From positions 1 to 10,489 of IMG/VR virus record IMGVR_UViG_2703718820_000012: DNA of 10,489 nucleotides. The stretch is one strand, 5' to 3'. Positions 2 to 10,489 of the stretch are shown piece by piece. A model generated the notes under the pieces. It had not been told where the DNA came from. It worked only from the letters and a program-made list of their open reading frames with translations, and did no database searches. The stretch is from a virus (Duplodnaviria; Heunggongvirae; Uroviricota; Caudoviricetes). A program made the position numbers and the translations under genes. Every line of letters starts with the position of its first letter. Positions within the stretch are counted from its first letter, which is position 1.

Positions 2-688
2 GACCAGGAAAAATGGAGCGGCGACGGTGCCGGACTCAAGGCCATCACCGGCGGCGATGCGGTGTCCGTGGACCCGAAATACCGGGATGCGTACTCCACG
101 CATATCCCGGCGGTAATTCTGGCCGTGAACAATAACCCGATGCGCTTCACCGACCGCAGCGGCGGCGTGTCACGCCGGCGGGTGATTATTCACTTCCCGG
201 AACAGATAGCCCCGCAGGAGCGCGACCCGCAGCTTAAGGACAAAATCACCCGCGAGCTGGCGGTCATCGTGCGTCACCTGATGCAGAAGTTCAGCGACCC
301 GATGCTCGCCCGGTCACTGCTTCAGTCCCAGCAGAACTCAGACGAGGCGCTGAACATCAAACGGGATGCCGACCCGACGTTTGATTTTATCGGCTATCTG
401 GAAACCCTGCCGCAGACCAGCGGCATGTATATGGGGAACGCCAGTATCATCCCGCGCAATTACCGTAAATACCTCTATCACGCCTATCTGGCCTACATGG
501 AGGCAAACGGCTACCGGAATGTACTCAGTCTGAAAATGTTCGGGCTGGGGCTGCCGGTGATGCTGAAGGAATACGGACTGAATTACGAGAAGCGCCATAC
601 CAAACAGGGGATACAGACCAACCTGACGCTGAAAGAGGAAAGCTACGGCGACTGGCTGCCAAAATGTGACGACCCTGCAACAGCCTGA
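2..688 (+). CDS. P4 alpha-like DNA primase/helicase, C-terminal portion (5' end lies upstream of the window)
   Basis: The listed ORF (62..688) starts at an internal GTG. The same frame is open from nt 2 with no stop in 2-61 (DQEKWSGDGAGLKAITGGDAVSVDPKYRD...). The sequence resembles the C-terminal region of phage/plasmid P4-family primases as I recall them. It is followed by an intrinsic terminator and by TGTTCACC iterons, the known binding motif of P4 alpha. Confidence 0.8.
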   Translation, partial: DQEKWSGDGAGLKAITGGDAVSVDPKYRDAYSTHIPAVILAVNNNPMRFTDRSGGVSRRRVIIHFPEQIAPQERDPQLKDKITRELAVIVRHLMQKFSDPMLARSLLQSQQNSDEALNIKRDADPTFDFIGYLETLPQTSGMYMGNASIIPRNYRKYLYHAYLAYMEANGYRNVLSLKMFGLGLPVMLKEYGLNYEKRHTKQGIQTNLTLKEESYGDWLPKCDDPATA

Positions 689-695
689 CCCACCT

Positions 696-720
696 GACCG
701 GCATCTGCCGGTCTTTTTTT
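696..720 (+). terminator. Rho-independent terminator of the primase gene
   Basis: Stem gaccggc (696-702) pairs with gccggtc (707-713), with loop atct, followed by a run of 7 T (714-720). It lies 8 nt after the TGA stop. Confidence 0.75.
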
Positions 721-738
721 ATCCCGACATCCCCCGAA

Positions 739-767
739 GGTGAACAATCCACTGTTCACTCTTCACT
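739..767. promoter_or_regulatory. Partial alpha-binding iteron cluster (TGTTCACC type)
   Basis: GGTGAACA at 739-746 is an exact reverse complement of TGTTCACC. TGTTCACT at 753-760 matches 7/8, and tcttcact at 760-767 matches 6/8. The arrangement is the same as at the start of each crr-like repeat further downstream. Confidence 0.55.
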
Positions 768-1149
768 GTATATCCCCCGTACCAATATGAATTTAGTGAC
801 AAGAAAACATAAGTTGAACAGGAAAACCCAAAGAACTTTTTATCCCCCTCCAGACATTACCTGTCGCATCCATATTGAGCAAAAAATCTCATAGATAGAG
901 TGGTATTATTAACGTTTATCGCTTATCTAAATAGTAAAAACAAAATGCGATTCTAATTTTATTCACAGGGTAAATAACTGAAATTATCTAAATAACTATA
1001 AACCCCTCATATATATAAATAAATTATACCACATAACCAAAATACGATATTCTGCTGAGATCATTAAATTTAAGCTTATTTCAATGGCTATTACTCTAAA
1101 GATTTGTTAATAACCAGTCGTCATGAAAATATACTTACAGTTATGTTTA

Positions 1150-1185: not shown

Positions 1186-1872
1186 ATGAAAATTTGTTTT
1201 TTCGATATGGAGGGGACTTTACTTGAAAAGAACTCATATTTAGATAATGGAAAAGTTGCACCGAGCGCGTGGACAGTACTTGCCAAAGAAATCAGCGAAG
1301 CTTGTTTTATTGAAGAGGAAAAAACAAAAGATTTATGGCTAGCTAATAAATATATCAGCTATACACAATGGATGAAAGAAACTGTTGAAATACAAATCAA
1401 ACATGGAATGAACAAAAATCACCTACAAACGGTATTATCTCAAGCGAAGATACAAAAAGGTGCTGTGGAACTTATTCATTATTTGAAAAGTCAAGGATAC
1501 TTAACAGTATTGATATCTGGTGGGTTTAAAGAATTAGCAGACCTAACTCAAAAGAGCCTAAAAATAGATCATGCATATAGTGCTTGTGAATATTTTTTTA
1601 GGAAAGATGGTAGCATTGAGCACTTCAATCTATTACCAACAGATGAGGAAGGGAAACTGGTCTTCATGAAACACCTTGCCTCTGAATATAACGTAGAACT
1701 TGAAAATTGTATTTTTGTTGGCGATGGGAAGAATGATGTTTTTATCGCCAAAAATGTAGGTACTTCTATAGCCTTCAATGCTCAGAGAGAATTAAGAGAA
1801 GTATCTACATTTATTGTAGACCAAGAAACACCTGATTTATCAGCGATTATTGACCTTATTAGAACTATTTAA
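1186..1872 (+). CDS. HAD-superfamily hydrolase, subfamily IB (phosphoserine-phosphatase-like)
   Basis: A strong RBS (GGGGAGG) sits 4 nt upstream of the ATG. HAD motifs are visible: motif I FFDMEGTLL, motif II VLISGGF, and motif IV VGDGKNDVFIAKNVGTSIAFNA (GDGxND). The layout resembles SerB. The gene sits in AT-rich DNA. Confidence 0.8.
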   Translation: MKICFFDMEGTLLEKNSYLDNGKVAPSAWTVLAKEISEACFIEEEKTKDLWLANKYISYTQWMKETVEIQIKHGMNKNHLQTVLSQAKIQKGAVELIHYLKSQGYLTVLISGGFKELADLTQKSLKIDHAYSACEYFFRKDGSIEHFNLLPTDEEGKLVFMKHLASEYNVELENCIFVGDGKNDVFIAKNVGTSIAFNAQRELREVSTFIVDQETPDLSAIIDLIRTI

Positions 1873-2673
1873 TCGATTTTGGAAGTCAAGTTTATCTTTA
1901 ACTATTTCCAGTTGTTCCTCTAACTGTTTTATCTTTGATTCAGACTGTAATTTGTACTGATTAAATTCATTTAAGTCAAATTTCTCTGAGAAATAGTAAT
2001 CTCTCCCAAAAGAAATTAGCGAGAGGAATAACCCAACAACAGCGATCATCGTTCCTATTTTAGTTATCGATATAATTGATAATTTTTCAGTTAGCTCTTT
2101 GCTTATCTGCTCTTTTAGAACTACTGGTTCTAAAAAAGTTTTAGGAAAATTACTTATATCTGAAACACGGTAAGATCTATATTCATTATATTGTTCTATA
2201 ACATCATAAGAACTAGGCACAGCAGAAGCCGGTTGATAATTTGGATTTTTTTCTATTTCATGGAATACAACTCTAAAGAAAGATTTATCTTGCTCACTAT
2301 CAGTAACTGGAAGATATTCCTCTACAGCTGAGAAATTAATTAACAGTGTTGATATCGGACCGTTATATCCAGAATCGATAATACCAGTATTGAGTGCAAG
2401 AAACCCCTTTTGCGATAATCTATTTTTTAAAAATACATATGCAATAAAACCCTCTGGCACATGAAGTATTTCTTCTGATATTACAAAAGCCGAATCTTGC
2501 GGTTTAAGTAAAGTTCTTCCGAGAGATCTTACATGATTTTTTTCATCTTTAAAAAGAATTTCCCTAATAGAAAGATCCACACTTGATTTATTAGAATAAT
2601 CTTTTGTGATTTTTTTGTTATATCTATCACAAACAAACCCATATTCAATTGCTTTTTGAGCACTAATCTGCAT
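1840..2673 (-). CDS. dUTPase/dCTP-deaminase-fold protein with C-terminal transmembrane helix and coiled coil
   Basis: RBS aggtga lies upstream of the ATG at 2673. LKNRLSQKGFLALNTGIIDSGYNGPISTLLINFS aligns by eye with E. coli Dut ([35 protein letters not shown]) and Dcd ([33 protein letters not shown]). The hydrophobic stretch IGTMIAVVGLFLSLISFG spans aa 206-223 (nt 2005-2058). A heptad-like tail KLQSESKIKQLEEQLEIVKDKL follows. Confidence 0.75.
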   Translation of the reverse strand: MQISAQKAIEYGFVCDRYNKKITKDYSNKSSVDLSIREILFKDEKNHVRSLGRTLLKPQDSAFVISEEILHVPEGFIAYVFLKNRLSQKGFLALNTGIIDSGYNGPISTLLINFSAVEEYLPVTDSEQDKSFFRVVFHEIEKNPNYQPASAVPSSYDVIEQYNEYRSYRVSDISNFPKTFLEPVVLKEQISKELTEKLSIISITKIGTMIAVVGLFLSLISFGRDYYFSEKFDLNEFNQYKLQSESKIKQLEEQLEIVKDKLDFQNRLNSSNKVNNR

Positions 2674-2751: not shown

Positions 2752-2892
2752 TGTTTTTGAATATATTATTGACGAAGCAAGTCAACTGATCAATACTGTG
2801 TATAAAAAAACAACATCTTCACCACATATAAAAAAAACATAAAATCATGGTACTACCTCAAAGTCCTGACTCCTGCTGAATTGCTTAATCAT

Positions 2893-2990
2893 AAGAAGCG
2901 CCATACAAAACAGGGAATAAAGAGCAACCTGACGCAAAAAGAGGAAAGCTACGGCCACTGGCTGCCAAAATGTTACGCTCCTGCAACAAC
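2893..2990 (+). pseudogene. Remnant of a second alpha-primase 3' end (copy B of the repeat)
   Basis: It encodes KKRHTKQGIKSNLTQKEESYGHWLPKCYAPATT, homologous to the last ~33 codons of the intact primase gene. There is no upstream coding body and the original stop is lost, so the frame reads on into the terminator and iterons. Confidence 0.75.
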
Positions 2991-2998
2991 CCTACCTA

Positions 2999-3022
2999 GA
3001 CCGTCCTCTGCCGGTCTTTTTT
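2999..3022 (+). terminator. Degenerate copy of the primase terminator
   Basis: gaccgtc (2999-3005) pairs with gccggtc (3010-3016) with one mismatch, followed by 6 T. It is homologous to the terminator at 696-720. Confidence 0.5.
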
Positions 3023-3039
3023 ATCCCGGCCCCCCAGAA

Positions 3040-3345
3040 GATGAACAATCCACTGTTCACCTTTCACCGTATATTCACCTGTTATCATACTGAAATTAAA
3101 AGAGAAAAATGAAAGGTGAACAGTGTGAACAATCAAATCAAAAAAACTCTTTTCTCCTTGTGTGATTTCAGTCCGGGGAATTAATCACCGGTATGAGTCA
3201 CACCGGCAGAATGCCGGAGGTGAAGAATCAAATGTTCACCCTTCACCCATTATTCACCACCTATCATACTGAAAGTAAAAGAGAAAACAGAAAGGTGAAC
3301 AGTGTGAACAGTTCTTTCGAAAAAAACTTTTTTCCTGTACGATAC
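3040..3345. promoter_or_regulatory. crr-like cis replication region: two ~125-bp direct repeats carrying TGTTCACC iterons
   Basis: Exact TGTTCACC occurs at 3054-3061 and 3233-3240. Exact GGTGAACA occurs at 3115-3122 and 3294-3301. 7/8 variants occur at 3040-3047, 3072-3079, 3124-3131, 3219-3226, 3251-3258 and 3303-3310. The units are about 3040-3165 and 3219-3345, with a 179-bp period. This matches the published description of P4 crr as two 120-bp repeats separated by 60 bp. Confidence 0.75.
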
Positions 3346-3718: not shown

Positions 3719-4933
3719 ATGTATATGTCGGTTTTTCATAACTGGCTGCTTGATATCGCAAGCGGGAATTACTTTATCTACATCAAACGCCTTTCTGCAA
3801 ACGACACAGGCGCAACAGGTGGCCATCAGGTCGGACTTTATATCCCCTCAAATATCGTTGAAAAGCTTTTTCCATCAATCAATCATACTCGCGAACTGAA
3901 CCCTTCAGTCTTCCTTACTGCGCATGTATCATCCCATGATTGCCCTGATACCCAAGCACGCGCAATTTATTACAACAACCGTTATTTTGGTAAGACCCGA
4001 AACGAAAAAAGAATTACGCGCTGGGGGAGAGGAAGTCCATTACAGAACCCTGAAAATACAGGAGCCCTCACAATTCTTGCTTTCAGGTTAAACGAACAGA
4101 ACACTGACTGTTCCGAGGTAGATATATGGGTCTGCGTCAATCCCGATGAAGAGGATATCATCGAGTCTGCTATTGGCGAAATCATACCTGGAACCCTAAT
4201 TTCCGGCCCTGCCGGACAAATTTTGGGCGGATTGTCTCTTCAGCAAACTCCAGTAAATCATAAATATGTTATTCCTGAAGACTGGAAGAAGCGTTTTCCT
4301 TCTGGAAACGAAATTATTCAATATGCTGCTGGCCATTATGCTAAAAACTCCAAGGATCCAGATGAGCAACTGATTGACCGTCGGCGTGTCGAGTATGATA
4401 TTTTTCTACTCGTCGAGGAATTACATGTTCTTGATATTATTAAGAAAGGATTCGATTCTGTAGATGAGTTTATTGCATTAGCCAACTCTGTCAGTAATCG
4501 ACGTAAATCAAGGGCAGGCAAATCACTTGAACTTCACCTAGAGAAGCTTTTTATCGAGCACGGACTACGGCATTTCTCCACTCAGGCAGTTACTGAAGGT
4601 AATAAAAAACCAGATTTCCTGTTTCCTTCAGCAGAGGCATATCATAACGTTGAATTTCCTGTAGAAAACTTACGTATGCTGGCAGTAAAGACCACCTGCA
4701 AAGATCGCTGGCGTCAGATACTGAATGAAGCAGATAAAATCCATCAGGTACATTTATTTACACTGCAAGAAGGTGTTTCTTCAGCACAATACCGAGAAAT
4801 GAAAGATGCGGGTGTCAGACTCGTTGTACCATCAACTTTACATAAAAAATACCCAGAAGCAGTTAGAGAAGAATTAATAACGCTCGGAGCATTCATTACT
4901 GAGCTGATAGAGCTTTACGCTGAACTATCATAG
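3719..4933 (+). CDS. ecoRIIR: Type IIE restriction endonuclease, EcoRII family (CCWGG)
   Basis: The 404-aa product is near-colinear with EcoRII as I recall it (SVFHNWLL...YIKRLSANDTGATGGHQVGLYIP...KKPDFLFPS...LAVKTTCKDRWRQILNEADK). Counting from the ATG at 3719, residues fall on the literature numbering: R88, E271, D299, Y308, K324, E337. An alternative ATG at 3725 has better SD spacing. Confidence 0.93.
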   Translation: MYMSVFHNWLLDIASGNYFIYIKRLSANDTGATGGHQVGLYIPSNIVEKLFPSINHTRELNPSVFLTAHVSSHDCPDTQARAIYYNNRYFGKTRNEKRITRWGRGSPLQNPENTGALTILAFRLNEQNTDCSEVDIWVCVNPDEEDIIESAIGEIIPGTLISGPAGQILGGLSLQQTPVNHKYVIPEDWKKRFPSGNEIIQYAAGHYAKNSKDPDEQLIDRRRVEYDIFLLVEELHVLDIIKKGFDSVDEFIALANSVSNRRKSRAGKSLELHLEKLFIEHGLRHFSTQAVTEGNKKPDFLFPSAEAYHNVEFPVENLRMLAVKTTCKDRWRQILNEADKIHQVHLFTLQEGVSSAQYREMKDAGVRLVVPSTLHKKYPEAVREELITLGAFITELIELYAELS

Positions 4934-4967: not shown

Positions 4968-6401
4968 TCAAGGCTGCCCAGTCTTACCAGCATCAGCAGA
5001 AACAGCTTTGAGGATATAGGGTTCCAGAAGTCTGGCAACAGCTTCAAATACTGGCACCACAACTGAGTTACCGAACTGCCGATATGACTGAGTATCTGAA
5101 ACCGGAATACGGAATGGTTTCCCTCCAGGTTTTTCAAATCCCATAAGGCGTGCACACTCTCGGGGAGTCAGCCTGCGTGGTCGACGAGCCTGATTACTCT
5201 CATTCATAAAGTCAGCCTCTCCCGTTGCCATATCCCAACCACGATCAATAAGAATTTCTGATCCGTCTTTGTGATATCTGGCAGAAAGTGTGCGTGCAAT
5301 GCTTTCCTTATTCTCAGGATTGACCAACCCAAAGCCAAAACCATTCCCCTTGGCTGCATGCTTTTTGGCGTAGTTATAAAGGTACTCCCATAGTTTTGGC
5401 GTAAGTATATATTTACTGTCGACTACAGGCTCCAGCAATTCACCAAATGATGGGCGGTGTTCCGGATAAAAACGACTGATATCACGCAAGGTAAACCCCT
5501 TGTGAATATTCAGATCTCGTCTAAATCCGACCAGAACAATGCGTTCACGATGCTGAGGCAAAAAATGCTTCCCATCGATAATCTTTGGATCGTTTTTTCC
5601 CATTTCTGCAGCATCGGCAACTTCGTAGCCCAGCTCGTCAAGGGTCTCCATAATCACTTTGAAAGTTTTACCCTTATCATGGCTCTTCAGATTTTTGACA
5701 TTTTCCAGCACAAAAATTGCCGGTTTTTTTGCTCGTATAATACGTGCCACGTCAAAAAAAAGTGTTCCTTGTGCTTCACATTCAAAACCATGCGCACGAC
5801 CAAGTGAGTTTTTCTTACTAACACCAGCAAGGCTAAATGGCTGGCACGGGAACCCCGCAAGAAGCACATCATGATCCGGCACATGCTCATCAATATATGC
5901 ATAAGCATCCGTTTCCAATACATCGGTTTTATCACTCAGCGTGACTTCCCGAATATCGAGATTGAATTTATGCACCTGTTCATCGTTAAACCAGTTGGCT
6001 TTGTATGTACGCACAGCATCTTTATTCCATTCACTGGTAAAAACACACTGGCCTCCAATGGCCTCAAAACCTTTCCGTATCCCTCCAATTCCAGCAAATA
6101 AGTCAATGAAGCGGAAAGCATATTCCGGATGGTTTGCAGGTGGTTCTGGTAGCATCTTACGCAGAAGAGACTCTTCTACTGAAGTCAACGATTTTGGTAA
6201 ACACTTGCCATTAATCCAGCGGTTAATGGTTTCACGGCTCCACTCATTTTTTCCGACTTTTCTCAGTAATTCAGCCACATACTTCTGATCATAGATTTCC
6301 AGCACTTTCTCGATAAGCTTTTTATCATTTTCCTGTCGCAGCTTTTCTTCCGCCTCGGCTTCCTTCAGCAGATGCTGTGCCAACACTTCAAATTCAGACA
6401 T
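4968..6401 (-). CDS. ecoRIIM: DNA (cytosine-5) methyltransferase, M.EcoRII/Dcm family (CCWGG)
   Basis: The C5-MTase motifs are all present: [10 protein letters not shown] (I), GFPCQPFS (IV), FVLENVKNL (VI), QHRERIV (VIII), [11 protein letters not shown] (IX) and GNSVVVPV (X). The preferred start is the ATG at 6401 (MSEFEVLAQ...), preceded by GGAGG 5 nt upstream. This gives 477 aa and places the catalytic Cys at position 186, as in M.EcoRII. The ORF-track start at 6443 has no RBS. Confidence 0.93.
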
Positions 6402-6762
6402 AATTCCTCCAAGGGGTCTAATGGGTGAAACTTTATCACTCATTCAACCCAGAAGGAAATGTTTTATCTGGATATTTAAACAGTGACTACAACGTAATCT
6501 AGCACTGGTGATGCTTTGTTAGGCATAGAGAATCATTCTATATACGACTAATGACAGAAAAACAGCAGACAAGTAGTTTGTTCATAAATTAACGCATACT
6601 ATGTGTCTACGGTTTTCGAGACCGGTCCAATCATCAAACGAAACATAAAATTAGCTCACATTATGAGGAAAAGTATCTTTTTTGTACTATGTAAATTCAA
6701 AGGCTTAGCCTCATTTCTCCGATGGTTTTCTCAACACTACTGGTTGTGAGCCCTTGCAATGA

Positions 6763-7581
<819 letters not shown>

Positions 7582-7600: not shown

Positions 7601-7642
7601 AAACCGCAGCACGATCTTCTTCCATACGACGTGCTACGGTTT
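7601..7642. terminator. Long hairpin between the convergent GIY-YIG and invertase genes
   Basis: aaaccgcagcacg (7601-7613) pairs with cgtgctacggttt (7630-7642). The stem is 13 bp with one mismatch and the loop is 16 nt. It abuts the invertase stop codon. The T tracts are weak. Confidence 0.45.
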
Positions 7643-8196
7643 CATTTATCTCCGACCGGAAACTTCTTATACAGTGTCGATATACCAACATCATAGATGA
7701 TCGCCACCTTCTGGCGAGGAACGCCTGATGCAATTAATCGCCCGGCCTGCGCCCATTGTTCTGGTGTAAGTTTGGGACGACGTCCACCAATTCGTCCCTG
7801 TGCGCGAGCAGCTTCCAGTCCAGCTTTTGTTCGTTCAACAATCAGTTCTCGTTCCATTTCAGCCAGGGCACCCATCACATGAAAGAAAAAACGCCCCATC
7901 GGTGTGCTGGTATCAATAGCATCCGTCAGACTGCGAAAATTAACGCCACGTTCGCGCAACTCCTCAACCAGAATGACCAGATGCCGCATACTACGCCCCA
8001 GCCGATCCAGCTTCCAGACAACCAGAGTGTCACCTGCCGATAATGTCCTGAGCAGTTTTTTCAGTCCCGGCCTTTCGGACTTTGTACCGCTTATCTTGTC
8101 TTCAAAAATCAGCTCGCATCCTGCACAGTTCAGCGCATTACGTTGTAGATCTGTGTTCTGGTCATTTGTTGATACGCGTACATAGCCAATAAGCAT
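7642..8196 (-). CDS. pin: Serine-recombinase DNA invertase (Pin/Gin/Hin/Cin family)
   Basis: MLIGYVRVSTNDQNTDLQRNAL...VVWKLDRLGRS...MGRFFFHVMGALAEMERELIVERT...GRIGGRRPKL...IYDVGISTLYKK is the hallmark of this family. It includes the catalytic Ser in YVRVST and a C-terminal HTH. The true start is the ATG at 8196, giving 184 aa, the same length as e14 Pin. The ORF-track start at 8232 adds 12 unsupported residues. Confidence 0.93.
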   Translation of the reverse strand: MLIGYVRVSTNDQNTDLQRNALNCAGCELIFEDKISGTKSERPGLKKLLRTLSAGDTLVVWKLDRLGRSMRHLVILVEELRERGVNFRSLTDAIDTSTPMGRFFFHVMGALAEMERELIVERTKAGLEAARAQGRIGGRRPKLTPEQWAQAGRLIASGVPRQKVAIIYDVGISTLYKKFPVGDK

Positions 8197-8250
8197 GGTA
8201 GATCCCCCTGACAAAAGCAGGAATGATGCCATCTGCTCGTTATTTCTGCA

Positions 8251-8276
8251 TTTTCATAAACGTTGGTTTGGGAGAA
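8251..8276. promoter_or_regulatory. 26-bp invertase crossover site (pix/gix-like), invertase-proximal
   Basis: ttttcataaacg-tt-ggtttgggagaa is the reverse complement of TTCTCCCAAACC-AA-CGTTTATGAAAA. This matches the Din-family AAACC-NN-GGTTT core. It lies in inverted orientation to the site at 9782-9807 and shares its central AA/TT dinucleotide. Confidence 0.85.
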
Positions 8277-8630
8277 GCGGCAAAACGGAATGTAGGTAAC
8301 GGGCAAAACCAAATTCCGGATATGGCGGCGTTTGCCAGTTCACTTTCATCAACGGGTTTTCAAAAACTCCCTTCAGGTCTGATTATTCAGTGGGGTATTG
8401 TCAGTGGAGCATCAAACTATACGGTGACTTACCCGGTAACATTCCCAAATCGTTCACTTGCGCTGTTGGCTGTGCCACATACAACGTCGGTGGCTGGTAT
8501 ATCTGCAATGGGCATAGCGAACTGTTCTGATATCAGCAAATCACAGTTCTATATAATTGTTGGCGGTATATCTCAGGGAGAAATTGTCAAATATGAAAGG
8601 TCCTGTTTTTGGGTAGCAATCGGTGTATAG
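8265..8630 (+). CDS. Alternative tail-fibre C-terminal cassette (silent orientation, no start of its own)
   Basis: [23 protein letters not shown]... parallels [23 protein letters not shown]... of the expressed fibre, then diverges. After inversion it would be in frame with the constant part (9796-10489). The ORF-track portion 8223-8264 lies outside the segment and is spurious. Confidence 0.75.
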   Translation, partial: GLGEAAKRNVGNGQNQIPDMAAFASSLSSTGFQKLPSGLIIQWGIVSGASNYTVTYPVTFPNRSLALLAVPHTTSVAGISAMGIANCSDISKSQFYIIVGGISQGEIVKYERSCFWVAIGV

Positions 8631-8638
8631 GTATATCT

Positions 8639-9034
8639 ATGATTTATTTCTCAAAATCGACTAATGGTTTTTTCTTTGATGGTATAAACAGCGACATGCC
8701 TGCTGACATTGTTGAGATAAGTACAGACTTATACAATGAATTAATTGCCGGACAGCAGGAAGGGGGGAAATTAATCACGTCAGATGAAAATGGTTTACCG
8801 GTACTGAAATCTCCGGCGATTGATTATGTCGCACGTGCTGAAAATCAGCGAATGCAGTTACTTGCTCATGCCGATAATGTCACAGCTGACTGGCGGGTGG
8901 AATTAATGCTTGGTGATATCAGCAGTACAGATAAAGAAAAACTATCTGCCTGGATGGACTACAAAAAAGAAGTAAAAGCCGTCGACACTTCGACGGCTCC
9001 TGAGATTAGCTGGCCTGAGTTACCGGAGGTGTAG
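8639..9034 (+). CDS. tfa: Tail-fibre assembly protein (partner of the silent cassette)
   Basis: MIYFSKSTNGFFFDG...LYNELIAGQ...[30 protein letters not shown] follows the typical Tfa/U-family layout. It lies directly downstream of the fibre cassette. The start is placed at the ATG at 8639 rather than the ORF-track start at 8609. Confidence 0.8.
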   Translation: MIYFSKSTNGFFFDGINSDMPADIVEISTDLYNELIAGQQEGGKLITSDENGLPVLKSPAIDYVARAENQRMQLLAHADNVTADWRVELMLGDISSTDKEKLSAWMDYKKEVKAVDTSTAPEISWPELPEV

Positions 9035-9425
9035 GCCATTCAATATCTGGCGCACCGGAAGTATCGACCAGTTCCAGTGCGTCCAGGTAATCCAGCCACA
9101 AATTATATTGTGCCAGTTCCTCACCTTTCAGCCGGCCAATAGCCGCTTTACCAGGCCATTGTTTACTGTTCATATAATCGTTGGCCTGTTCAATAAGTAT
9201 ATTTTTCATTCCCTCCGCTTCAGCTATTTCCTGTTCATGTGTCTTCGCTGGATATTCAGTAAGTACAGGGTAGTTATCCGGGCTATTGATAATAATTTTC
9301 CCCGTACTCTGACCATTCATAAGTTCATAATAAAGAGCATCTTCAATATCGAAAGCATCATCGGGAATATCGCTGTTGTTTTCAGAGAAAAATCCCTGAA
9401 CAGATGGGGACCATTTCATTTTCAT
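9006..9425 (-). CDS. tfa: Tail-fibre assembly protein (partner of the expressed fibre)
   Basis: [15 protein letters not shown]...LYYELMNGQ...[28 protein letters not shown] is a paralogue of the 8639-9034 product. Its start overlaps the fibre stop (ATGA overlap at 9422-9425). Confidence 0.8.
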
Positions 9426-10489
9426 AATTTCCCAATTCCTAAAATATGGACATCATCAGCCTTACGGGCATTCCAGGTGACAATTACATCGGTAGAGTGA
9501 CGATTAACTGAGATTGCGTATGCTTCGTTAGTCGAGCCAGAAACTTTTGTGGCAAACACAGCAAACAGGACACCAAATGACTGGGGCCATTTATAGCCTG
9601 ACAGCTGATAATTACCATTATCCAGTGTTACAGCTTTGACTGCTGCACTTGATGGAATCGTCAGCCACTGGAGTATCAACCCTCCTGGCAAAAGTTGTTT
9701 TCCATAAAAATCCCTCACACCACTAAATGAAACCATATCCGGTATCTGATTTTCCCCTGTTCCCACGTCCCGTTTTGCCGCTTCTCCCAAACCAAGGTTT
9801 TCGAGAGCCGTTTGCACAGTGCCATCCGATTTGATATCGCCAAACGGATTCTTGCGGCTTAACAGCAGCGCACGAAGTGCGGTAAGCATCTGGTCATGCC
9901 GCCCTTTCTCCAGGCTGGCACCGGAGGCCTCCACCACGCTACAAAGTTCTTCCTGCAACATGTCAAAGTAGTCATCATCCAGATCGGTGGCAGGTGTGCC
10001 GGTCTGGGGGTTACCACGGGTATCCGGTTTGTCGGTGTTACTGCCCTGACCGTTCTCTCTGTGACGATGCCCGTTATAGGCAAGCCGCATCGCTGACATG
10101 GTGGTGCCGCCGGAGTCGCACAGGTCTTTCACCTGTCCGGTCACTTCCAGGTCCATTTCAAAACGTGCTTCAGGTGCATTGCGAAACGTGATCGTTTTAC
10201 CTGCACCGTCCACCACGATCCCCTCCCGGGTCAGCGTCACGGACTGCCCCTGATCGTCATAGACAGCCACCTCGCCCGTCTGCAGCCCTTTCAGGCGGTA
10301 GCGACGGTCCGACACCGTAACAACCACCGCATGAGAACGGTCGCCATCCGGAAACAACACCACCGCTTCCGCACCGCTGTTTGCCCTTGCGGTAAAACCG
10401 TAGGGTTCAAGATGTTCAACCCCGGCTTTGGGTTCACCGGCAATCAGGGACACATCCACGGTCTGTAGTGGCACACTAAATTTGGCCAC
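9422..10489 (-). CDS. Tail protein: Mu Gp45-like baseplate domain fused to an invertible tail-fibre C-terminus (5' end probably beyond the window)
   Basis: The N-terminal part [55 protein letters not shown]...YNGHRHRE resembles the Mu Gp45 / baseplate assembly V family. The C-terminal part [37 protein letters not shown]...[13 protein letters not shown] is tail-fibre-like and crosses the inversion site at 9794/9795. The frame is open to the window edge. Confidence 0.75.
9782..9807. promoter_or_regulatory. 26-bp invertase crossover site (pix/gix-like), within the fibre gene
   Basis: TTCTCCCAAACC-AA-GGTTTTCGAGAG is a near-palindromic Din-family site. It is inverted relative to 8251-8276 and sits at the constant/variable junction of the fibre ORF (codons LENLGLGE). 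Confidence 0.85.

What the first reader, a model, noticed from the sequence alone, without database searches (positions are those of the whole stretch)
2005..2385. Dut/Dcd-fold domain appears to lack the Dcd catalytic Glu and is tethered to a single TM helix
The motif region ...GIIDSGYNGPISTLLINFS aligns by eye with Dcd ...[16 protein letters not shown]. This places Leu where Dcd has its catalytic Glu138. The Asp of dUTPase motif 3 (IDS-Y-G) is retained. The protein may therefore hydrolyse or merely bind a nucleotide rather than deaminate dCTP. The fold normally forms soluble homotrimers. A C-terminal hydrophobic helix (aa 206-223) followed by a ~25-aa heptad-like segment is unusual for it, and a trimeric coiled coil plus TM could suit a trimeric enzyme at the membrane.
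Basis: partly seen in the sequence, partly recalled or inferred. Interest (0 to 1): 0.6.

Follow-up and report, generated by a model that had tools for sequence, protein, structure and literature searches.

The report
Membrane-tethered Dut-like protein plus phosphatase
A gene on an E. coli satellite prophage encodes a membrane-anchored relative of dCTP deaminase/dUTPase that lacks the deaminase catalytic residues and always sits next to a phosphatase gene in phage-defence hotspots, so the pair is a candidate, untested anti-phage module acting on DNA building blocks.

Summary

The gene forms a fixed convergent pair with a phosphoserine-phosphatase-like HAD-IB gene (1186-1872 +). The pair lies at the end of a P4-like satellite, in P2-like prophage hotspots, and in defence islands of Vibrio, Idiomarina, Rahnella and Morganella. 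Distant relatives pair instead with ThyA-like, ThyX, dCMP-deaminase and 5-hmdU-kinase genes.

My best reading is an undescribed membrane-anchored branch of the Dcd/Dut superfamily that works with the HAD enzyme on pyrimidine deoxynucleotides, probably in phage defence. Catalysis, trimer formation and defence are all untested. No defence library or paper I could search describes it.

The parts
1840..2673 (-). Gene for the 277-aa membrane-anchored Dcd/Dut-like protein (RefSeq WP_062892052.1, annotated 'hypothetical protein')
   Evidence: ORF. The gene is 100% identical in E. coli BEN2908 and DETEC-P793. The word-indexed search found 114 homologues and the representative library 1408 clusters at E <= 1e-3. 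The N-terminus MQ(I/L)S is conserved, which supports the start codon.
2239..2673 (-). Dcd/Dut-fold domain, about aa 1-145
2404..2427 (-). Motif-2 equivalent, K83-N84-R-L-S-Q88-K-G90
   Evidence: hhalign maps K83 to Dcd R110, N84 to S111 and Q88 to R115. EIAV dUTPase GKSS aligns with LKNR. Family counts are K83 207K/9R and N84 148N/63T/4S.
2359..2391 (-). Motif-3 equivalent, N95-T-G-I-I-D100-S-G-Y103-N-G105
   Evidence: D100 maps to Dcd D128 and to the dUTPase motif-3 Asp. Family counts are D100 217/219, N95 202/219 and Y/F/W103 217/219.
2344..2346 (-). Codon of Leu110, the position of the Dcd catalytic Glu138
   Evidence: Alignment. No E or D occurs at this column in 219 relatives.
2260..2274 (-). 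R134-V-V-F137-H138, the motif-4 region (Arg kept, Gln replaced by Phe)
   Evidence: Family counts are R134 217R/2K, F137 197/219 and H138 182/219. The placement against E. coli Dut motif 4 comes from a weak alignment (probability 7.8%), so it is tentative.
2074..2202 (-). Family-specific helices aa 158-200, with invariant Y165 and the P177-x-x-F180 motif. There is no counterpart of Dut motif 5 or the Dcd C-terminal lid.
   Evidence: AF2 helices at 158-174 and 183-200. Invariant columns. The hhalign match to Dcd ends at aa 126.
2005..2067 (-). Single transmembrane helix, aa 203-223
   Evidence: Kyte-Doolittle 19-mer mean 1.96. AF2 helix 203-231. Present in 219 of 220 relatives, with flanking charges indicating N-in/C-out.
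1861..1977 (-). C-terminal helical, heptad-patterned tail, aa 233-271, predicted periplasmic
   Evidence: AF2 helix 234-271. Heptad z is 2.0 here and averages 3.1 in the family. After the short aa 146-157 loop this is the most variable part of the protein: 25% mean identity, and tail lengths of 14-150 aa.
1186..1872 (+). Partner gene: 228-aa HAD-IB (phosphoserine-phosphatase-like) hydrolase, WP_058661114.1
   Evidence: Pfam Hydrolase 3.9e-15 and TIGR01488 HAD-IB 60 bits against a cut-off of 45. The best solved relative is M. jannaschii PSP 1f5s at 1.2e-12. The gene is convergent and adjacent in every locus with enough sequence to show it.
1204..1218 (+). HAD motif I, D7-M-E9-G-T11. The residue two positions after the nucleophile Asp (D+2) is Glu, invariant in 10 partners.
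   Evidence: MAFFT alignment of 10 HAD partners.
1720..1737 (+). HAD motif IV, G-D-G-K-N-D (aa 179-184)
   Evidence: Conserved in the partner alignment (G179, D180, G181, N183 and D184 invariant; K182 is Glu in one partner). The position was counted on the translation.
1840..1872 (.). 33-nt overlap of the two convergent 3' ends
   Evidence: Coordinates. In other loci the ends overlap by 4-39 nt or lie 5-23 nt apart.
578..778 (+). Left copy of a direct repeat of about 200 bp: the 3' end of the P4 alpha primase gene, its terminator (696-713) and the downstream sequence
   Evidence: the repeat finder families D1, D3, D5 and D7. Terminator-like site. Pox_D5/primase C-terminal match.
2884..3079 (+). 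Right copy, about 85% identical. It is a remnant of a primase 3' end with a terminator at 2998-3017, and it closes the low-GC cassette.
   Evidence: RefSeq annotates it as a partial 'poxvirus D5-like' pseudogene. GC is 0.31-0.33 inside the cassette and 0.43-0.60 outside.

Best explanation
Shown by the analyses. The ORF encodes an inner-membrane-anchored protein with a cytoplasmic N-terminal domain, one TM helix and a helical tail predicted to lie outside. It belongs to an undescribed branch of the dCTP-deaminase/dUTPase (Dcd/Dut) superfamily. All three deaminase catalytic residues are lost, so it is not a dCTP deaminase. The nucleotide-site core is kept nearly invariant: motif-1 Asp33, Lys83, Asn95, Thr96, motif-3 Asp100, Tyr103, Asn113 and Arg134. 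The gene is one half of a fixed two-gene cassette with a phosphoserine-phosphatase-like HAD-IB hydrolase. The two genes are convergent and their 3' ends overlap. The cassette is mobile and low in GC. Here it sits at the end of a P4-like satellite, next to an EcoRII restriction-modification system and PD-T4-3.

Inferred. The cassette is an anti-phage or inter-element competition module that acts on pyrimidine deoxynucleotides. I propose that the Dut-like domain, probably a trimer held at the membrane by the TM helix and coiled coil, binds a pyrimidine dNTP and probably cleaves it to dNMP plus PPi. The HAD enzyme would then remove the 5' phosphate. The net effect would be to drain, or police, a pyrimidine dNTP pool that phage replication needs. 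The variable outside tail is a candidate site for activation by infection.
For: Fold and residues.

Membrane anchor and topology.

Fixed pairing. The HAD gene is convergent and adjacent for about 15 distinct Dcd-like proteins from Escherichia, Rahnella, Morganella, Photobacterium, Vibrio, Pseudoalteromonas, Idiomarina and Pseudidiomarina, and on 4 IMG/VR contigs. The HAD partners are 54-71% identical while their Dcd-like partners are 33-47% identical.

Defence or mobile-element context:
- the end of a P4-like satellite, next to EcoRII and PD-T4-3 (E 1e-139);
- between portal gpQ and gpA in a P2-like prophage; from memory, this is the old/tin position in P2;
- between the CI repressor and int in Vibrio P2-like prophages, next to Dcm and McrBC/LlaJI;
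- an Idiomarina island with GmrSD, an NgoMIV restriction-modification system, BrxR and a HATPase protein.

Link to pyrimidine dNMPs. Distant members of the same architecture are encoded directly beside ThyA-like genes in 4 of 4 informative loci, and ThyX in a fifth. dCMP deaminase and 5-hmdU DNA kinase genes also occur there. The ThyA-like partners match the TS of the validated system DS-4 at E 1e-21 to 1e-24. Weak UMPH-1 (pyrimidine 5'-nucleotidase) hits are on record for several HAD partners.

From memory: a dNTP pyrophosphatase followed by a dNMP 5'-nucleotidase is the classical route by which hmU and U-DNA Bacillus phages remove thymidine nucleotides. dNTP depletion is an established defence strategy (dCTP deaminase and dGTPase, Tal et al. 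2022).
Against: - No experiment exists. Neither PADLOC 2.0 nor any paper I could search covers the pair.
- The dUTPase machinery is incomplete. The motif-4 Gln is Phe, motif 5 and a Dcd-type lid are absent, and the motif-2 Ser is Asn. Hydrolysis is therefore not assured.
- The HAD enzyme resembles phosphoserine phosphatases more than known nucleotidases.
- Convergent, overlapping genes are more typical of products that need separate control, as in restriction-modification pairs, than of two steps in one pathway.
- Nothing in the model explains why a nucleotide enzyme needs a membrane anchor and an outside tail.
- One Alteromonas locus has the Dcd-like gene followed by a transposase gene instead of HAD.
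Confidence: 0.45

Rival explanations
1. Non-catalytic sensor with a membrane effector (abortive infection). The Dut-like domain only binds a nucleotide, or binds a phage Dut/Dcd-like protein. The TM helix and coiled coil then oligomerise and damage the membrane. The HAD enzyme acts as a regulator or antidote, not as a second pathway step.
For: - The catalytic equipment of both Dcd and Dut is incomplete.
- The convergent, separately transcribed arrangement is conserved from E. coli to Idiomarina.
- The closest sequence matches in PDB are S. aureus phage dUTPases. From memory, these act as signalling proteins towards the Stl repressor.
- In the P4 hotspot system 'Hydrolase + 3TM', Rousset et al. 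suggested abortive infection because of its TM protein.
- In E. coli strain E1 the TM gene is broken by an 8-bp duplication while the HAD gene stays intact. This fits the TM protein being the costly part.
Against: - The phosphate-binding and base-site residues K83, D100 and R134 are nearly invariant in 219 relatives. That is more than binding alone usually needs, although Dcd also keeps its Asp without using it for hydrolysis.
- Relatives are encoded directly beside ThyA-like genes (stop and start codons overlapping or abutting in three of the four loci) or ThyX genes, which points to a metabolic role.
- A single TM helix is a weak pore former.
- The Alteromonas copy appears to persist without an adjacent HAD gene.
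Confidence: 0.3
2. An ordinary nucleotide-hygiene gene carried by mobile elements. In this reading it is a divergent, membrane-bound dUTPase that supplies dUMP or keeps dUTP low for the element's own replication, with no role in defence.
For: - The profile matches dUTPases better than Dcd by sequence.
- Relatives sit next to thymidylate synthases, the classic consumers of dUMP.
- From memory, many phages carry dut genes.
Against: - No homologue was found in 50,697 isolated phage genomes and only 4 in IMG/VR.
- The gene always sits in variable accessory hotspots, not in replication modules.
- It is rare in E. coli: 5 of 5426 complete genomes carry this cassette.
- The Idiomarina copy lies among restriction-modification, GmrSD and BrxR genes with no prophage around it.
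- Motif 5 is absent. From memory, motif 5 is needed for efficient dUTPase catalysis.
- A HAD partner and a membrane anchor have no place in this role.
Confidence: 0.15
3. A true dCTP deaminase whose catalytic Glu was missed through misalignment, or a spurious ORF or spurious TM segment.
For: - RefSeq names many relatives 'dCTP deaminase domain-containing protein'.
Against: - The profile-profile alignment is anchored on both sides of the Glu position at identical spacing: D100 with D128 and N113 with N141.
- No acidic residue occurs at that column in 219 relatives, and Ser111 and Arg115 are replaced as well.
- TIGR02274 scores 29 bits against a cut-off of 92.8.
- The ORF, its TM helix and its tail are conserved across several gammaproteobacterial orders and beyond.
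Confidence: 0.03

Closest known systems
dCTP deaminase Dcd and bifunctional Dcd-Dut (E. coli Dcd, M. tuberculosis Rv0321, M. jannaschii MJ0430; TIGR02274, Pfam PF22769)
   Different: Glu138 is Leu, Ser111 is Asn, Arg115 is Gln and His121 is Leu. The C-terminal lid residues (Y171, K178, Y179, Q182) are not detectable. The protein carries a TM helix and a tail. Scores fall far below the curated cut-off.
Homotrimeric dUTPase (Pfam PF00692), notably retroviral EIAV and S. aureus phage 80alpha/phi11-type enzymes
   Same: These are the best sequence matches (4.8e-7 and 1.4e-6 with the family profile). Motif 3, G-I-I-D-x-G-Y-x-G, is shared. Lys in motif 2 matches EIAV GKSS. An Asn lies five residues before the Asp, as in EIAV.
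Rst 'Hydrolase + 3TM' system of P4 hotspots (Rousset et al. 2022, PMC9122126; plasmid pFR97, anti-T7)
   Same: It has the same logic: a two-gene cassette on P4-like satellites that combines a HAD hydrolase with a membrane protein.
   Different: It is not homologous. Its hydrolase is a HAD_2/HAD-IA-type protein of about 290 aa with a DxD motif, and BLASTP to our HAD gives only E 0.1 over motif IV. Its 3TM protein shows no similarity to the Dcd-like protein. It lies in the psu-int hotspot, whereas ours lies after the primase gene.
Nucleotide-depletion defences (dCTP deaminase and dGTPase, Tal et al. 2022; AvcD dCMP deaminase). Recalled from memory; the DefensePredictor supplement lists the defence dCTP deaminase with kinase and APOBEC-like domains.
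   Same: The proposed outcome is the same: phage replication is starved of a deoxynucleotide.
   Different: The defence dCTP deaminase has a zinc-dependent cytidine-deaminase fold with a kinase domain, not the Dcd/Dut fold. PADLOC models give no hit. Depletion by our pair is only inferred.
DS-4 of DefensePredictor (PMC13092281): thymidylate-synthase-like, dNMP kinase, 5-hmdU DNA kinase, TIR and Nmad2 genes; validated in E. coli
   Same: Distant members of our family are encoded with ThyA-like genes that are homologous to the DS-4 TS (E 1e-21 to 1e-24). One locus also has a 5-hmdU DNA kinase gene.
   Different: DS-4 has no Dcd/Dut-like membrane protein. The window's cassette has a HAD gene instead of a TS gene.

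Membership tests
dCTP deaminase (Dcd, EC 3.5.4.13; TIGR02274) | Dcd/Dut beta-barrel fold with N-terminal extension | tested here: met
dCTP deaminase (Dcd, EC 3.5.4.13; TIGR02274) | Catalytic Glu (E. coli Glu138) | tested here: not met
   Leu110 aligns with Glu138. None of 219 relatives has E or D at this column. The reference sequences were validated.
dCTP deaminase (Dcd, EC 3.5.4.13; TIGR02274) | Ser111 and Arg115, which assist deamination (role recalled from the E. coli Dcd literature) | tested here: not met
   Asn84 and Gln88 occupy these positions. Family counts are N/T/S at 84 and mostly Q at 88.
dCTP deaminase (Dcd, EC 3.5.4.13; TIGR02274) | Score at or above the curated family cut-off | tested here: not met
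   TIGR02274 scores 29.2 bits against 92.8. Pfam DCD scores 25.0 against 27.
Homotrimeric dUTPase (EC 3.6.1.23; PF00692) | Motif 3 with the catalytic Asp and the sugar-stacking Tyr | tested here: met
   G97-I-I-D100-S-G-Y103-N-G105 aligns with EIAV GIIDEGYTG and with the S. aureus phage Dut motif.
Homotrimeric dUTPase (EC 3.6.1.23; PF00692) | Motif 2, (R/K)-S | tested here: inconclusive
   K83 matches the EIAV Lys, but the Ser is Asn84. It is Thr or Ser in 67 of 219 relatives.
Homotrimeric dUTPase (EC 3.6.1.23; PF00692) | Motif 4, R-x-x-Q | tested here: not met
   R134 is kept, but the Gln position is Phe137 (197 of 219). The alignment to E. coli Dut is weak.
Homotrimeric dUTPase (EC 3.6.1.23; PF00692) | Motif 5, the Gly-rich C-terminal arm | tested here: not met
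   No such segment exists. After aa 139 come a variable loop, two family-specific helices, the TM helix and the tail.
Homotrimeric dUTPase (EC 3.6.1.23; PF00692) | Homotrimer with shared active sites | not testable with these tools
   Only single-chain prediction was available.
Rst Hydrolase-3TM defence system (Rousset 2022) | Homology of both proteins to the pFR97 hydrolase and 3TM protein | tested here: not met
   BLASTP gives E 0.096 between the HAD proteins (motif IV only) and E 1.5 between the TM proteins. PADLOC gives no hit for the Dcd-like protein.
HAD superfamily, subfamily IB (for the partner gene) | HAD motifs I-IV and a score above the subfamily cut-off | tested here: met
   TIGR01488 scores 60.1 bits against 45. 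The motifs D7-x-E9-x-T11, S111-G-G, K157 and G-D-G-K-N-D are conserved. It falls below the SerB and PSP-like equivalog cut-offs, so its substrate is unknown.
Known anti-phage defence systems (PADLOC-DB 2.0) | Match to any defence-protein model | tested here: not met
   The Dcd-like protein matches no family. The HAD protein gives only a weak PDC-S34 hit (E 2.8e-4 over 36 residues).

The most novel reading that the evidence does not exclude
The HAD and membrane-anchored Dut-like pair is a new two-gene anti-phage system. A trimeric, Glu-less Dcd/Dut-fold enzyme at the inner membrane is switched on by an infection cue, possibly sensed through its variable outside tail. Together with a dedicated phosphatase it destroys a pyrimidine dNTP such as dTTP, dUTP or a modified dNTP. 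Its relatives, coupled to ThyA-like or ThyX genes, would then form a wider, unrecognised class of immune modules that rewire pyrimidine nucleotide pools.
Probability: 0.3. Interest if true: 0.8.

Novelty: new variant of a known kind. Interest (0 to 1): 0.62.

Why it matters
If the reading is right, it adds a membrane-anchored, non-deaminating third branch to the well-studied Dcd/Dut superfamily. The branch holds at least 638 clusters at 50% identity with E <= 1e-10. It would also give HAD phosphatases a concrete partner. HAD enzymes keep turning up in defence loci, yet the DefensePredictor authors state that their role there remains unknown. The link to thymidylate-synthase-like genes ties this family to DS-4, a recently validated but mechanistically unexplained system. 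It suggests that control of pyrimidine deoxynucleotide pools is a broader immune theme than the known dCTP-deaminase and dGTPase systems. The cassette is small, about 1.9 kb, comes from E. coli, and could be tested directly.

Tried and rejected
- Misalignment of the Glu position: rejected by the profile-profile alignment and the family census.
- Membership in Rst Hydrolase-3TM or homology to the DS-9 HAD: rejected by BLASTP against sequences taken from the papers' supplements.
- Known defence models: PADLOC gave nothing for the Dcd-like protein. PHROGs gave only a marginal dUTPase hit at E 0.035.
- Literature: five searches and three papers read found no description of the pair or of its RefSeq accessions (papers). 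The dUTPase-containing system predicted by DefensePredictor has a different architecture (MazG-C, dUTPase, aGPT-Pplase).
- Isolated phage genomes and plasmids: no true homologue in phages, and one distant hit on a Sinorhizobium megaplasmid. BFVD holds only soluble Dcd/Dut folds.
- Rfam: no RNA family in the window.
- Promoter scan: consensus-like sites lie upstream of both genes (1107-1135 on +, 2793-2765 on -). Such sites are no more frequent than in shuffled sequence (8 found against 11.5 expected), so they are not evidence.
- The afdb50 fold library was unavailable. Multimer modelling, TMHMM/DeepTMHMM and inspection of model coordinates were not possible. I therefore could not check the trimer, the coiled-coil state, or whether H138 and Y165 face the active site.
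- A strict toxin-antitoxin reading, with HAD as an essential antidote, is weakened but not excluded by the Alteromonas locus. There an intact Dcd-like gene is followed by a transposase gene and the contig ends soon after.
Full report
**What is at the coordinates.** The window carries an ORF at 1840-2673 on the minus strand, 277 aa long. Coordinates 2005-2385 map exactly to aa 97-223. That stretch runs from GIIDSGYNG to the end of the hydrophobic segment IGTMIAVVGLFLSLISFG. The gene is 100% identical in E. coli BEN2908 and DETEC-P793, where RefSeq calls it a hypothetical protein. Only 3 of 5426 complete E. coli genomes carry this cassette, and 2 more carry a version 86% identical.

**Catalytic residues.**
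They score 224, 214 and 146 bits on TIGR02274, and they carry Glu at the published positions 138, 129 and 145.
- hhalign of A1 against these three gave probability 87.5% and E 3.6e-6.
- The residue map is D33/D34, K83/R110, N84/S111, Q88/R115, L94/H121, T96/T123, D100/D128, Y103/W131, L110/E138 and N113/N141.
- The Glu position is bracketed by two invariant anchors at identical spacing, so the by-eye alignment was right.
- I aligned all 219 full-length relatives from both database searches to the profile. The Glu column is L94/T39/V36/I23/A8/M7/S4 and never acidic.
- In the same census D100 is kept in 217 of 219, N113 in 219 of 219 and R134 in 217, K83 is K207/R9, N95 is kept in 202, H138 in 182, Y165 in 207 and F180 in 218.
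- Deamination is thus excluded for practical purposes.
- The dUTPase set is incomplete as well. The motif-4 Gln position holds Phe137, although that placement rests on a weak alignment. No Gly-rich motif 5 exists. The match to Dcd ends at aa 126, so no Dcd-type lid was detected.
- In their place the family has its own conserved elements: a helix at 158-174 with invariant Y165, and a P177-x-x-F180 motif.

**Membrane anchor and tail.**
- The Kyte-Doolittle 19-residue mean reaches 1.96.
- 219 of 220 full-length relatives have a window of at least 1.6, at a median start near residue 201.
- Lys plus Arg is more frequent on the N-side flank in 142 proteins and on the C-side in 19. This predicts a cytoplasmic Dut-like domain and an outside tail.
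- AF2 draws helices at 203-231 and 234-271.
- Heptad periodicity in the tail is modest for this protein, at z = 2.0 with 15 of 300 shuffles reaching it. It is clear across the family, with mean z 3.1 and 75% of members above 2.
- After the short aa 146-157 loop (7% identity), the tail is the least conserved part of the protein, at 25% identity against 57% for the core. Tail length varies from 14 to 150 residues.
- Whether the coiled coil is trimeric could not be tested.

The gene converges on a 228-aa HAD-IB hydrolase gene at 1186-1872 (+), and the two 3' ends overlap by 33 nt.
- The same convergent pair, overlapping by 4-39 nt or 5-23 nt apart, occurs at every locus with enough sequence to show it. 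That covers about 15 distinct Dcd-like proteins from Escherichia, Rahnella, Morganella, Photobacterium, Vibrio, Pseudoalteromonas, Idiomarina and Pseudidiomarina, and all four IMG/VR contigs.
- The HAD partner is the better conserved of the two, at 54-71% identity against 33-47%.
- Its motif I is D-M-E-G-T, with an invariant Glu two residues after the nucleophile Asp. From memory, enolase-phosphatase E1 has the same D-x-E pattern, so the pattern is compatible with catalysis.
- Motifs II-IV are intact. An invariant cap insert, LDNGKVAPSAWT, marks the subfamily.
- The closest solved relative is M. jannaschii phosphoserine phosphatase at 1.2e-12.

**Where the cassette sits.**
- In BEN2908 the gene order is ssrA, int, an accessory gene, psu-delta-sid, the regulators, and the alpha primase. 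The cassette follows the primase, so it lies at the far end of a P4-like satellite.
- It is low in GC, 0.31-0.33 against 0.43-0.60 around it.
- It is bracketed by direct repeats of about 200 bp (578-778 and 2884-3079, 85% identical). Each repeat comprises the primase 3' end and its terminator.
- Downstream in the window lie an EcoRII-type restriction-modification pair and a PD-T4-3 homologue at E 1e-139.
- In Rahnella the pair lies between portal gpQ and gpA of a P2-like prophage. From memory, that is the old/tin position in P2.
- In Vibrio it lies between the CI repressor and int of P2-like prophages, next to Dcm and McrBC/LlaJI.
- In E. coli relatives it lies in a small int/AlpA/Rep element.
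- In Morganella it lies at prophage ends, with four different left flanks.
- In Idiomarina it lies among GmrSD, NgoMIV restriction-modification, BrxR and HATPase genes.
- It is absent from 50,697 isolated phage genomes.

**The wider family.** An exhaustive profile search found 1408 clusters at 50% identity with E <= 1e-3 and 638 with E <= 1e-10. Most are 240-290 aa and match through the TM helix and tail.
- Members with K-T instead of K-N in motif 2 have a different partner. It is a ThyA-like gene immediately downstream on the same strand, with stop and start codons overlapping or abutting in three of the four loci. This held in all four informative loci: Bradyrhizobium, a deltaproteobacterium and two metagenomic contigs.
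- In a fifth locus the partner is an overlapping upstream ThyX gene.
- Extra neighbours include dCMP deaminase, 5-hmdU DNA kinase, AIPR and Vsr genes.
- The ThyA-like partners are homologous to the TS of DS-4, a validated E. coli defence system (E 1e-21 to 1e-24).
- Every partner found is an enzyme of pyrimidine deoxynucleoside monophosphates or a phosphatase.

**How it most likely works.** Three things are shown: the protein is not a deaminase, the nucleotide-site core is conserved, and the protein has a membrane anchor and an obligate HAD partner in mobile and defence contexts. The rest is inferred.
- The Dut-like domain probably binds a pyrimidine dNTP and may hydrolyse it to dNMP.
- The HAD enzyme probably removes the phosphate.
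- The cassette probably serves defence or inter-element competition by draining a dNTP pool.
- From memory, a dNTPase followed by a dNMP nucleotidase is how hmU and U-DNA Bacillus phages eliminate thymidine nucleotides, and dNTP depletion is a known defence strategy.

Four points weigh against this. The hydrolytic motifs are incomplete. The HAD enzyme resembles phosphoserine phosphatase. The convergent gene layout suggests antagonistic or separately controlled products. The membrane anchor is unexplained. The main rival is a non-catalytic nucleotide or protein sensor whose TM and coiled-coil part is the effector, with the HAD enzyme as regulator. I rate the two readings at 0.45 and 0.30.

**Comparison with what is known.** The protein fails the defining tests for Dcd (Glu, Ser and Arg all replaced; score below cut-off). 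It also fails for Dut (no motif 5, no motif-4 Gln). It is unrelated to the Rousset 'Hydrolase + 3TM' system despite the similar gene logic on P4-like satellites. PADLOC 2.0 has no model for it. I found no paper describing it. I class it as a new variant within a known superfamily and a candidate new defence module, with no experimental support yet.

Noticed in passing
window 578-778 and 2884-3079 (third partial copy at 3211-3258): Direct repeats of about 200 bp, 85% identical, bracket the low-GC cassette. Each comprises the 3' end of the P4 alpha primase gene, its terminator and the downstream sequence. This looks like the scar of a cassette insertion or exchange, or of tandem satellite remnants. 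RefSeq annotates the right copy as a partial 'poxvirus D5-like' pseudogene.
   Followed up: partly
L002:9716-10557 (E. coli strain E1), equivalent to window ~2300: The 86%-identical copy of the Dcd-like gene carries an 8-bp tandem duplication (ATTACTGA) that shifts the frame and splits the gene into ORFs of 175 and 142 aa. The HAD gene stays intact. The same truncated products appear as clusters P0039 and P0036.
   Followed up: partly
L023:6606-7499, L024:6804-7823 and 7853-8830, L029:1981-3353, L043:3876-4856, L031:202-969: Distant members of the family (K-T in motif 2) are encoded directly beside ThyA-like genes, with stop and start codons overlapping or abutting in three of the four loci, or beside ThyX genes. 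dCMP deaminase or 5-hmdU DNA kinase genes sometimes follow. AIPR or Vsr genes lie upstream. The ThyA-like proteins match the TS of the validated system DS-4.
   Followed up: partly
window 1204-1218: HAD motif I reads D-M-E-G-T. A Glu replaces the usual second Asp and is invariant in all 10 partners examined. An invariant cap insert, LDNGKVAPSAWT (aa 19-30), is also present.
   Followed up: partly
window 3719-4933 (+) and 4968-6443 (-): A complete EcoRII-type restriction endonuclease (404 aa, EcoRII-N and EcoRII-C domains) and a C5 cytosine methyltransferase (491 aa) lie in convergent orientation. This block is absent from the otherwise similar BEN2908 locus.
   Followed up: no
window 6808-7581 (+): A full-length homologue of the defence protein PD-T4-3 (LEM-3-like GIY-YIG nuclease), with PADLOC E 1.1e-139.
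   Followed up: no
window 7642-10489: A Pin/Gin-type serine invertase (7642-8232) lies next to oppositely oriented tail-fibre and tail-fibre-assembly ORFs (8223-9425) and a tail-fibre/baseplate ORF that runs off the window end. This is a tail-fibre inversion switch belonging to a neighbouring prophage remnant.
   Followed up: no
L017:5983-8130 (Alteromonas confluentis): An intact Dcd-like TM gene is followed by a 422-aa ORF that by eye looks like an IS256-family transposase (not scanned against any library), where the HAD gene normally lies. The contig ends 16 nt later, so it is unclear whether the HAD gene is lost or only displaced.
   Followed up: no
L036-L039 (Morganella and relatives): The identical HAD plus Dcd-like cassette has four different left flanks: icd, a prophage tail/invertase/UmuDC region, an ars operon, and a tail-fibre gene. 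The right flank is largely the same in three of the four loci. The cassette therefore sits at a recombination-prone prophage end.
   Followed up: no
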